From Eledone cirrhosa (taxonomy: Eukaryota): a stretch of DNA of 64,000 nt. The notes beneath the pieces are model-generated. The model saw only the letters and a program-made list of their open reading frames with translations. It was not told where the DNA came from and made no database searches. The stretch is taken from assembly GCA_964016885.1 (NCBI GenBank), contig OZ024757.1, positions 10,912,001-10,976,000 on the forward strand, read 5' to 3'. Below are positions 16,730 to 17,180 of this stretch, in pieces (position 1 is the first letter of the stretch; the number at the start of each line of letters is the position of its first letter). The translations under genes were made by a program, and so were the position numbers.

Positions 16730-16897
16730 GATAGATAGGTAAATATACACGGGTGTGTATGATTGTGTATAGAAGATTATATTAATAAGAGGAATTCCAA
16801 CTTTGTCTGATTTACTCGTTTTATTTACAATCCTTTAAAATATATAATGGTATTATAATGAAATAGTATGATAGAATATTAAATTCTAAGTGTTAAT

Positions 16898-16936
16898 TGA
16901 ACAAGTACTTTCATGCTTTCGCAATCTTCAGGTTCA
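16898..16936 (-). ncRNA. Minimal type I hammerhead (family E, left arm)
   Basis: Reverse complement of 17010-17048. Confidence 0.9.
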
Positions 16937-17009
16937 TAATATGTGGTGACAGTCGAGTTTGCAATTTTCAACAGTTGAAAATTGCAAACTCGACTGTCAC
17001 CACATATTA

Positions 17010-17048
17010 TGAACCTGAAGATTGCGAAAGCATGAAAGTACTTGTTCA
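17010..17048 (+). ncRNA. Minimal type I hammerhead (family E, right arm)
   Basis: TGAAC-CTGAAGA-TTGC GAAA GCAT-GAAA-GTAC-TT-GTTCA. Confidence 0.9.
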
Positions 17049-17180
17049 ATTAACACTTAGAATTTAATATTCTATCATACTATTTCATTATAATACCATT
17101 ATATATTTTAAAGGATTGTAAATAAAACGAGTAAATCAGACACAGTTGGAATTCCTCTTATTAATATATATATATATATA

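What the first reader, a model, noticed from the sequence alone, without database searches (positions are those of the whole stretch)
16778..17168. 390 bp near-perfect palindrome carrying a 39 nt minimal hammerhead on each strand
With a 1 nt spacer and one mismatch seen, this looks very recent or is being homogenised. A transcript from either strand contains a ribozyme preceded by its exact antisense. It could form a long dsRNA hairpin that blocks cleavage and feeds ADAR editing or Dicer (inference). The DNA should be cruciform-prone.
Basis: partly seen in the sequence, partly recalled or inferred. Interest (0 to 1): 0.72.

Follow-up and report, generated by a model that had tools for sequence, protein, structure and literature searches.

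The report
Back-to-back Penelope retrotransposon stub pair
This DNA palindrome is one of at least 532 same-centred, back-to-back stubs of an abundant Penelope-like jumping gene, each stub carrying that element's usual predicted self-cutting RNA motif, and the joints suggest that both ends of a DNA break likely each primed a copy of the element's RNA and the two copies met at the RNA's start.

Summary
The palindrome is real: two 195-bp arms, a 1-nt centre, one mismatch, and a 39-nt minimal hammerhead on each strand. It is not a one-off. The hammerhead 37-mer occurs 5,173 times in the genome. The arm is the pseudo-LTR of a ~4.2-kb Penelope-like element (reverse transcriptase plus C-terminal GIY-YIG, Neptune-type motifs). 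The identical centre occurs at 532 loci. The copy sits in (TA)n and has the Penelope 'tail' on one arm only. Inverted pseudo-LTRs and opposite-strand hammerhead pairs are published features of these elements. The joints add a mechanistic clue. Most copies begin at one ACAGT site, 31 nt after a TATAAAA. The centre is A/T at 532 loci and C/G at 1. The tail falls on either side of that base equally (28:28). This fits two cDNAs, one primed from each target end, annealing across a T·T mismatch, and does not fit fixed snap-back or a palindrome moving as a unit. Arm identity is typical of the family, so homogenisation is not needed. Transcription, cleavage, editing and Dicer processing are untested. 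The scan noted this architecture before, in other families of this genome.

The parts
16974..17168 (+). Right arm: pseudo-LTR (3' end) of a Penelope-like element, cut off at its 5' ACAGT site, no tail
   Evidence: 96-98% match to the repeats flanking the ORFs in L031, L032, L033, L049
16778..16972 (-). Left arm: inverted copy of the same pseudo-LTR
16731..16777 (-). About 47-nt 'tail': continuation of the left arm into the sequence upstream of ORF1; outer boundary blurred by TA repeats
   Evidence: Same sequence follows the pseudo-LTR upstream of ORF1 in L049 and L031; tail on exactly one arm in 56 of 61 complete pairs
16971..16975 (.). Joint ACAGT: 5-nt odd palindrome, likely the element's RNA 5' end, shared by both arms; the centre base is the '1-nt spacer'
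   Evidence: 532 loci with A/T centre, 1 with C/G; 5' drop 4672 to 1390 to 1168; TATAAAA 31 nt upstream in long copies
17010..17048 (+). Minimal type I hammerhead, predicted cut after 17043
   Evidence: predicted only
16898..16936 (-). Mirror hammerhead, predicted cut after 16903
16646..16730 (.). (TA)n target tract, left
17169..17256 (.). (TA)n target tract, right
   Evidence: a TA run follows the tail-less end in 55 of 59 arms scored

Best explanation
This is a head-to-head pair of pseudo-LTR stubs of an abundant Penelope-like retrotransposon in a (TA)n tract, likely made in one insertion in which both ends of the cut DNA primed reverse transcription and the two cDNAs joined at the RNA's likely 5' end. 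Shown: the arm is the element's pseudo-LTR, the hammerhead is the family's own, the tail is on one arm, the joint recurs, and the centre base is independent of tail side. Inferred: a TATA promoter starts an RNA at ACAG; the element's protein cuts (TA)n; reverse transcription starts at two sites a tail-length apart, reads through the uncut hammerhead and runs off the 5' end; both cDNAs end in ACTGT-3' and anneal through 4 bp around a T·T mismatch, which is then resolved either way. The arms match because they come mostly from one source sequence at one time. The stub lacks the upstream TATA box and any ORF, so it is most likely inert debris; a read-through RNA would be double-stranded with the ribozyme unfolded.
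For: Family: 5,173 exact hammerhead copies. Long copies hold a 775-aa frame with RVT_1 (E 2.9e-6, below Pfam's cut-off) and C-terminal GIY-YIG (E 3.3e-6, above cut-off) between tandem arms about 4.2 kb apart, with an inverted arm at the 5' side. Joint: 532 A/T against 1 C/G. Tail on one arm in 56 of 61 pairs, none in 5, both in 0; 28 on each side of the centre base. 5' hotspot: 70% of 4,672 copies lose the element sequence within the next 10 nt, against 16% over the following 9 nt; 1,693 copies have a non-element base just before ACAG; 23 of 30 such hits have an inverted arm directly upstream. Blunt joints with one extra base: G/C 10, A/T 0, as a copied cap would give. Arms agree at 10 polymorphic sites in 92-100% of pairs against 42-76% expected. 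In vitro an anole element cuts and extends both strands, starts at two sites a tail apart, and uses uncleaved RNA (PMC11167929).
Against: No RNA data: the start site, the cap and the template strand are inferred. The extra G/C could come from a jump onto the element's internal ACTGTCAC instead of a cap. No target-site duplication or empty site could be read in TA repeats. The 91 loci were chosen by an exact centre, which favours young copies, and are among the first listed (88 on C1, 2 on C2, plus the window). Arkhipova et al. read such palindromes as self-priming on an antisense template (PMC3846280). No read was shown to span this particular locus. Clade placement rests on motifs, not on a tree.
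Confidence: 0.7

Rival explanations
1. Same element, but the second arm is made by snap-back or self-priming of one cDNA or of an antisense RNA at the ACAGT end.
For: Arms usually share subfamily and private variants (22 private shared changes), as copying one molecule predicts; self-priming on an antisense template is proposed in PMC3846280.
Against: It predicts one fixed polarity of centre base to tail; observed 28:28. It needs a 1-nt loop. Some pairs differ by several bases at one diagnostic word (L075; L021/L022, L040, L048 by eye), which points to two templates or later conversion.
Confidence: 0.17
2. The palindrome is itself a mobile unit (a foldback, MITE-like or retrozyme-like element) amplified from a few masters.
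For: 532 loci share the exact centre.
Against: The centre-to-tail polarity is random; arms follow several subfamily haplotypes locus by locus; many other joint variants use the same ACAG start; these copies are not tandem arrays.
Confidence: 0.05
3. A functional locus making double-stranded RNA that silences the ribozyme and feeds ADAR or Dicer, kept identical by conversion.
For: Predicted perfect hairpin that unfolds the hammerhead. Hundreds of such loci could together supply family dsRNA if read through (inference).
Against: The upstream TATA box is missing from the stub; arm identity is typical for the family and changes are mostly single-arm; no A-to-G clusters in 122 arms, though this tests only the RNAs that were copied into DNA.
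Confidence: 0.06
4. Assembly fold-back artefact.
For: No read set was shown to span this locus with unique flanks.
Against: Arms differ at one base and in the tail; the flanks are not mirrored; 532 loci share the joint; two contigs of run X2 bridge such a centre with 31 or more letters on each side.
Confidence: 0.02

Closest known systems
Endonuclease-containing Penelope-like element insertions with an inverted 5'-truncated copy and a one-sided tail (Craig et al. 2021, PMC8557442, passages and section 11; Arkhipova et al. 2013, PMC3846280, passages)
   Same: Pseudo-LTR in tandem and inverted arrangement, tail at one end only, palindrome at the inverted joint, microsatellite target, TATA and initiator-like motifs in the pseudo-LTR.
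   Different: Here both copies are ORF-less stubs joined at one exact site at 532 loci; the tail is about 47 nt against the 30-40 described; the joint statistics favour two-ended priming on sense RNA over the proposed antisense self-priming.
Minimal hammerheads of metazoan Penelope-like elements (Cervera and De la Pena 2014, PMC4209133, parts 1-2 of 4 read)
   Same: Type I, short stem I, tiny palindromic helix III suited to dimers, extra base after A9, thousands of copies; the paper reports pairs about 100-700 bp apart on opposite strands.
   Different: Stem II is short (3 bp), 10.1-11.1 is U/U not G-C, and the motif is very uniform (5,173 exact copies).
Neptune clade (Nematis not excluded)
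   Same: [quoted passage not shown]
   Different: A separate ORF1 of about 450 aa overlaps the RT frame at a UUUUUUA site; no tree was built.
Anole Poseidon element in vitro (Frangieh et al. 2024, PMC11167929, parts 1-2 of 4 read)
   Same: Both strands cut and extended, two start sites bounding the tail, AT-rich target, hammerhead cleavage not needed.
   Different: Other clade; in the parts read it does not address how inverted joints form.
Animal non-LTR retrozymes (bioRxiv 10.64898/2026.07.22.740005, passages)
   Same: Non-coding, hammerhead-bearing, related to pseudo-LTRs.
   Different: Retrozymes are tandem arrays; this is an inverted pair that is the pseudo-LTR of a coding element.

Membership tests
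Penelope-like element (endonuclease-containing) | Reverse transcriptase with GIY-YIG endonuclease in the parent element | tested here: met
   L049 775-aa frame: RVT_1 E 2.9e-6 (27.6 bits, cut-off 29.6), GIY-YIG E 3.3e-6 (27.8 bits, cut-off 22.6), DKG and YLDD motifs
Penelope-like element (endonuclease-containing) | Partial-tandem pseudo-LTRs with inverted 5'-truncated copy | tested here: met
   L031 and L032: arms about 4.2 kb apart plus an inverted arm
Penelope-like element (endonuclease-containing) | Tail at one end only | tested here: met
   56 of 61 complete pairs, none with two
Penelope-like element (endonuclease-containing) | Hammerhead motif in the pseudo-LTR | tested here: met
Penelope-like element (endonuclease-containing) | Target-site duplication | tested here: inconclusive
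   Flanks are (TA)n; not readable
Neptune clade | CX2-5CxxC linker before a C-terminal GIY-YIG | tested here: met
   CNDNRCGTC at residue 650, GIY-YIG core at 687
Neptune clade | Phylogenetic placement of the reverse transcriptase | not tested
   No reference set fetched, no tree
Hydra clade | DKT motif, CxCX5C linker, short single ORF | tested here: not met
   DKG, CX5CxxC, about 4.2 kb, two frames
Minimal hammerhead ribozyme | Core CUGANGA, GAAA, NUH with stems I and II | tested here: met
   core intact in 103 of 122 arms
Minimal hammerhead ribozyme | G10.1-C11.1 pair | tested here: not met
   U17022 opposite U17033 (sequence); no Rfam match
Minimal hammerhead ribozyme | Palindromic helix III allowing a dimer | tested here: met
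   Two copies co-fold at -16.4 kcal/mol through AAGUACUU; prediction only
Minimal hammerhead ribozyme | Self-cleavage | not testable with these tools
   needs a bench assay
Non-LTR retrozyme | Head-to-tail tandem monomers | tested here: not met
   Two inverted stubs only; no other copy in the window's self-comparison

The most novel reading that the evidence does not exclude
The 532 same-centred palindromes are a genomic record of two-ended priming by a Penelope-like enzyme: both broken DNA ends copy a capped sense RNA to its first base, the two cDNA ends anneal across a T·T mismatch, and now and then the two arms come from different RNA molecules. This would explain how Penelope elements make their inverted repeats, against the antisense self-priming proposal, and would map the start site from DNA alone.
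Probability: 0.55. Interest if true: 0.6.

Novelty: new member of a known kind. Interest (0 to 1): 0.33.

Why it matters
As a locus it is ordinary repeat debris in a genome full of such palindromes. As a family it bears on an open point named by Craig et al. 2021: how Penelope-like elements form their tandem and inverted structures. This family gives a sharp test, because its likely RNA start is a 5-nt odd palindrome, so two-ended priming and snap-back predict different centre-to-tail polarity, and the copies split 28:28. Hundreds of perfect hairpin loci could also be a source of family double-stranded RNA if read through, which is untested.

Tried and rejected
DNA search of the genome with the arm found nothing (that search skips very common words), so patterns were used. 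No RNA holder listed. Laying reads on a long copy gave no strand-change joints and one run laid no reads; RAD-seq depth dips at the centre and is uninformative. Rfam gave only generic microRNA-hairpin scores below cut-off. A turning point at the hammerhead cut site was rejected: the joint lies about 70 nt upstream of it. Subfamily-conditioned concordance could not be computed because one anchor failed. No relative of the family's protein was found in the window (tblastn). Earlier notes by sequence: none for either repeat. Paper searches listed no paper on a fixed start-site joint or on two-ended priming for these elements; only listings and passages were seen, subscription journals are not covered, and no supplements were read, so supplements of PMC8557442 and PMC4209133 may bear on clade and motif claims.

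Full report
Observation. The palindrome is as described: centre A16973, arms 16778-16972 and 16974-17168, one mismatch at 16803/17143. Each strand has a 39-nt type I minimal hammerhead (+ 17010-17048, - 16936-16898). Rfam does not score it and its 10.1/11.1 positions are U/U, so it is a predicted, possibly weak, ribozyme. The whole folds into one hairpin (-306.7 kcal/mol) in which stem I has probability about 1e-47; even in a single arm it is only 0.065. Two copies can co-fold through the palindromic helix III.

What the arm is. The genome is 3.0 Gb and the hammerhead 37-mer occurs 5,173 times, control 0. Same-strand copies about 4.2 kb apart flank two overlapping frames, and an inverted copy follows at the 5' side (L031, L032). 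[quoted passage not shown] This is an endonuclease-containing Penelope-like element with Neptune-type motifs; the arm is its pseudo-LTR. The left arm runs on for about 47 nt (16777 to about 16731) into the sequence that precedes ORF1 in long copies: the one-sided tail. Both ends lie in (TA)n.

This is known anatomy. Craig et al. (PMC8557442, passages) describe inverted 5'-truncated copies, a tail at one end and microsatellite targets. Cervera and De la Pena (PMC4209133, parts 1-2 of 4) report minimal hammerheads in pseudo-LTRs, pairs 100-700 bp apart on opposite strands, and no monomer cleavage for the one minimal motif tested. Arkhipova et al. (PMC3846280, passages) report palindromes at inverted joints and propose self-priming on an antisense template.

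The joint recurs. The 31-nt centre occurs at 532 loci with A/T in the middle and at 1 with C/G. Of 4,672 copies holding the first 27 nt of the arm, 1,390 continue 10 nt upstream and 1,168 a further 9 nt: a sharp 5' edge. In long copies TATAAAA lies 31 nt before the A of ACAG. 1,693 copies have a non-element base before ACAG, and 23 of the first 30 such hits have an inverted arm directly upstream (two pairs of hits are the same insertion). Where both arms are complete with one base between, it is G/C in 10 and A/T in 0; a copied cap fits, but so does a jump onto the internal ACTGTCAC. A promoter in the pseudo-LTR is shown for Drosophila Penelope (PMC2377424, passages).

How it formed. I examined 90 of the first 100 listed centre loci plus the window; 61 of 91 have both arms complete. 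The tail is on exactly one arm in 56, on none in 5, on both in 0, and lies on either side of the centre base equally (28:28). Two cDNAs that run off an RNA starting ACAGU both end in ACTGT-3'; annealed, they give 4 bp around a T·T mismatch and, once extended, exactly the observed centre with either polarity. Fold-back of the tailed cDNA, or movement of the palindrome as a unit, predicts one polarity. In vitro an anole element cuts and extends both strands, starts at two sites a tail apart and uses uncleaved RNA (PMC11167929, parts 1-2 of 4). Arms of one locus agree at 10 polymorphic sites in 92-100% of pairs (42-76% expected) and share 22 private changes, so they mostly come from one source; 6 of 50 pairs differ at a 5-nt diagnostic word, one by three bases, which allows two templates or later conversion. 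The start site, cap and priming steps are inference.

Age and homogenisation. Within-locus mismatches have median 2 of 177 sites against 8 between loci; 12 of 61 pairs have none. The window's single mismatch is unremarkable. 137 changes sit on one arm and 40 on both, so strong conversion is not needed. No arm shows A-to-G clustering.

Artefact. Unlikely: asymmetric tail and flanks, 532 shared joints, and two contigs of run X2 that bridge such a centre (16900-17045 and 16917-17020, with 12 and 8 differences, so other copies). This locus itself was not confirmed by reads.

Context. The window holds several more palindromes and hammerhead-like motifs of other families. Earlier notes of this scan describe the same architecture and similar models for other families of this genome; they are unchecked leads, and my family reading was recorded before I saw them. 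They prompted the editing test (negative) and encouraged the start-site and cap tests.

Verdict. Real, explained as a Penelope-like insertion product (about 0.95 for family identity, 0.7 for the two-ended mechanism). New member of a known kind; interest 0.33, carried by the 28:28 polarity result.

Noticed in passing
window 15706-16651: A second head-to-head insertion, of a 557-bp unit that forms tandem and inverted arrays elsewhere (251 exact copies of a 33-mer), ends in the same TA tract. No hammerhead core or Rfam match; 16170-16330 folds better than shuffles (z -2.64), so an unidentified ribozyme is possible.
   Followed up: partly
L049:5500-9164, L031, L032: ORF1 (476 aa stop to stop, no clear Pfam match) overlaps the RT frame by about 90 nt with a UUUUUUA site in all four long copies with intact overlap, suggesting a -1 frameshift; no strong downstream structure predicted. 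Craig et al. Fig. 1 legend notes frameshift-separated ORF1 in some such elements.
   Followed up: partly
L049:1054-9700: An 8.6-kb palindrome of two near full-length elements head to head, joined inside the pseudo-LTR downstream of the hammerhead.
   Followed up: no
window 50366-51697, 25064-25685, 3910-4038, 19753-19872, 15288-15354: Further spacer-less palindromes of 90-95% arm identity; the longest has a hammerhead-like motif at 50437-50391.
   Followed up: no
window 6759-6703, 29905-29867, 60092-60054, 61229-61281: Other hammerhead-like motifs of unrelated sequence.
   Followed up: no
window 17004-17008: The five bases just before hammerhead stem I are the most variable part of the family, forming a stepwise series of haplotypes.
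   Followed up: partly
window 33566-35251 (-), 63252-63971 (-), 42376-43362 (-), 10706-11995 (-), 29-1180 (-): Retroelement frames: RVT_1 with PHD finger; weak RVT_1; weak zf-RVT; the last two have no Pfam match but look like divergent reverse transcriptases by eye.
   Followed up: partly
window 3469-3526 (-): tRNA-like match just above Rfam's cut-off, inside a repeat with several copies in the window; likely a SINE head.
   Followed up: no
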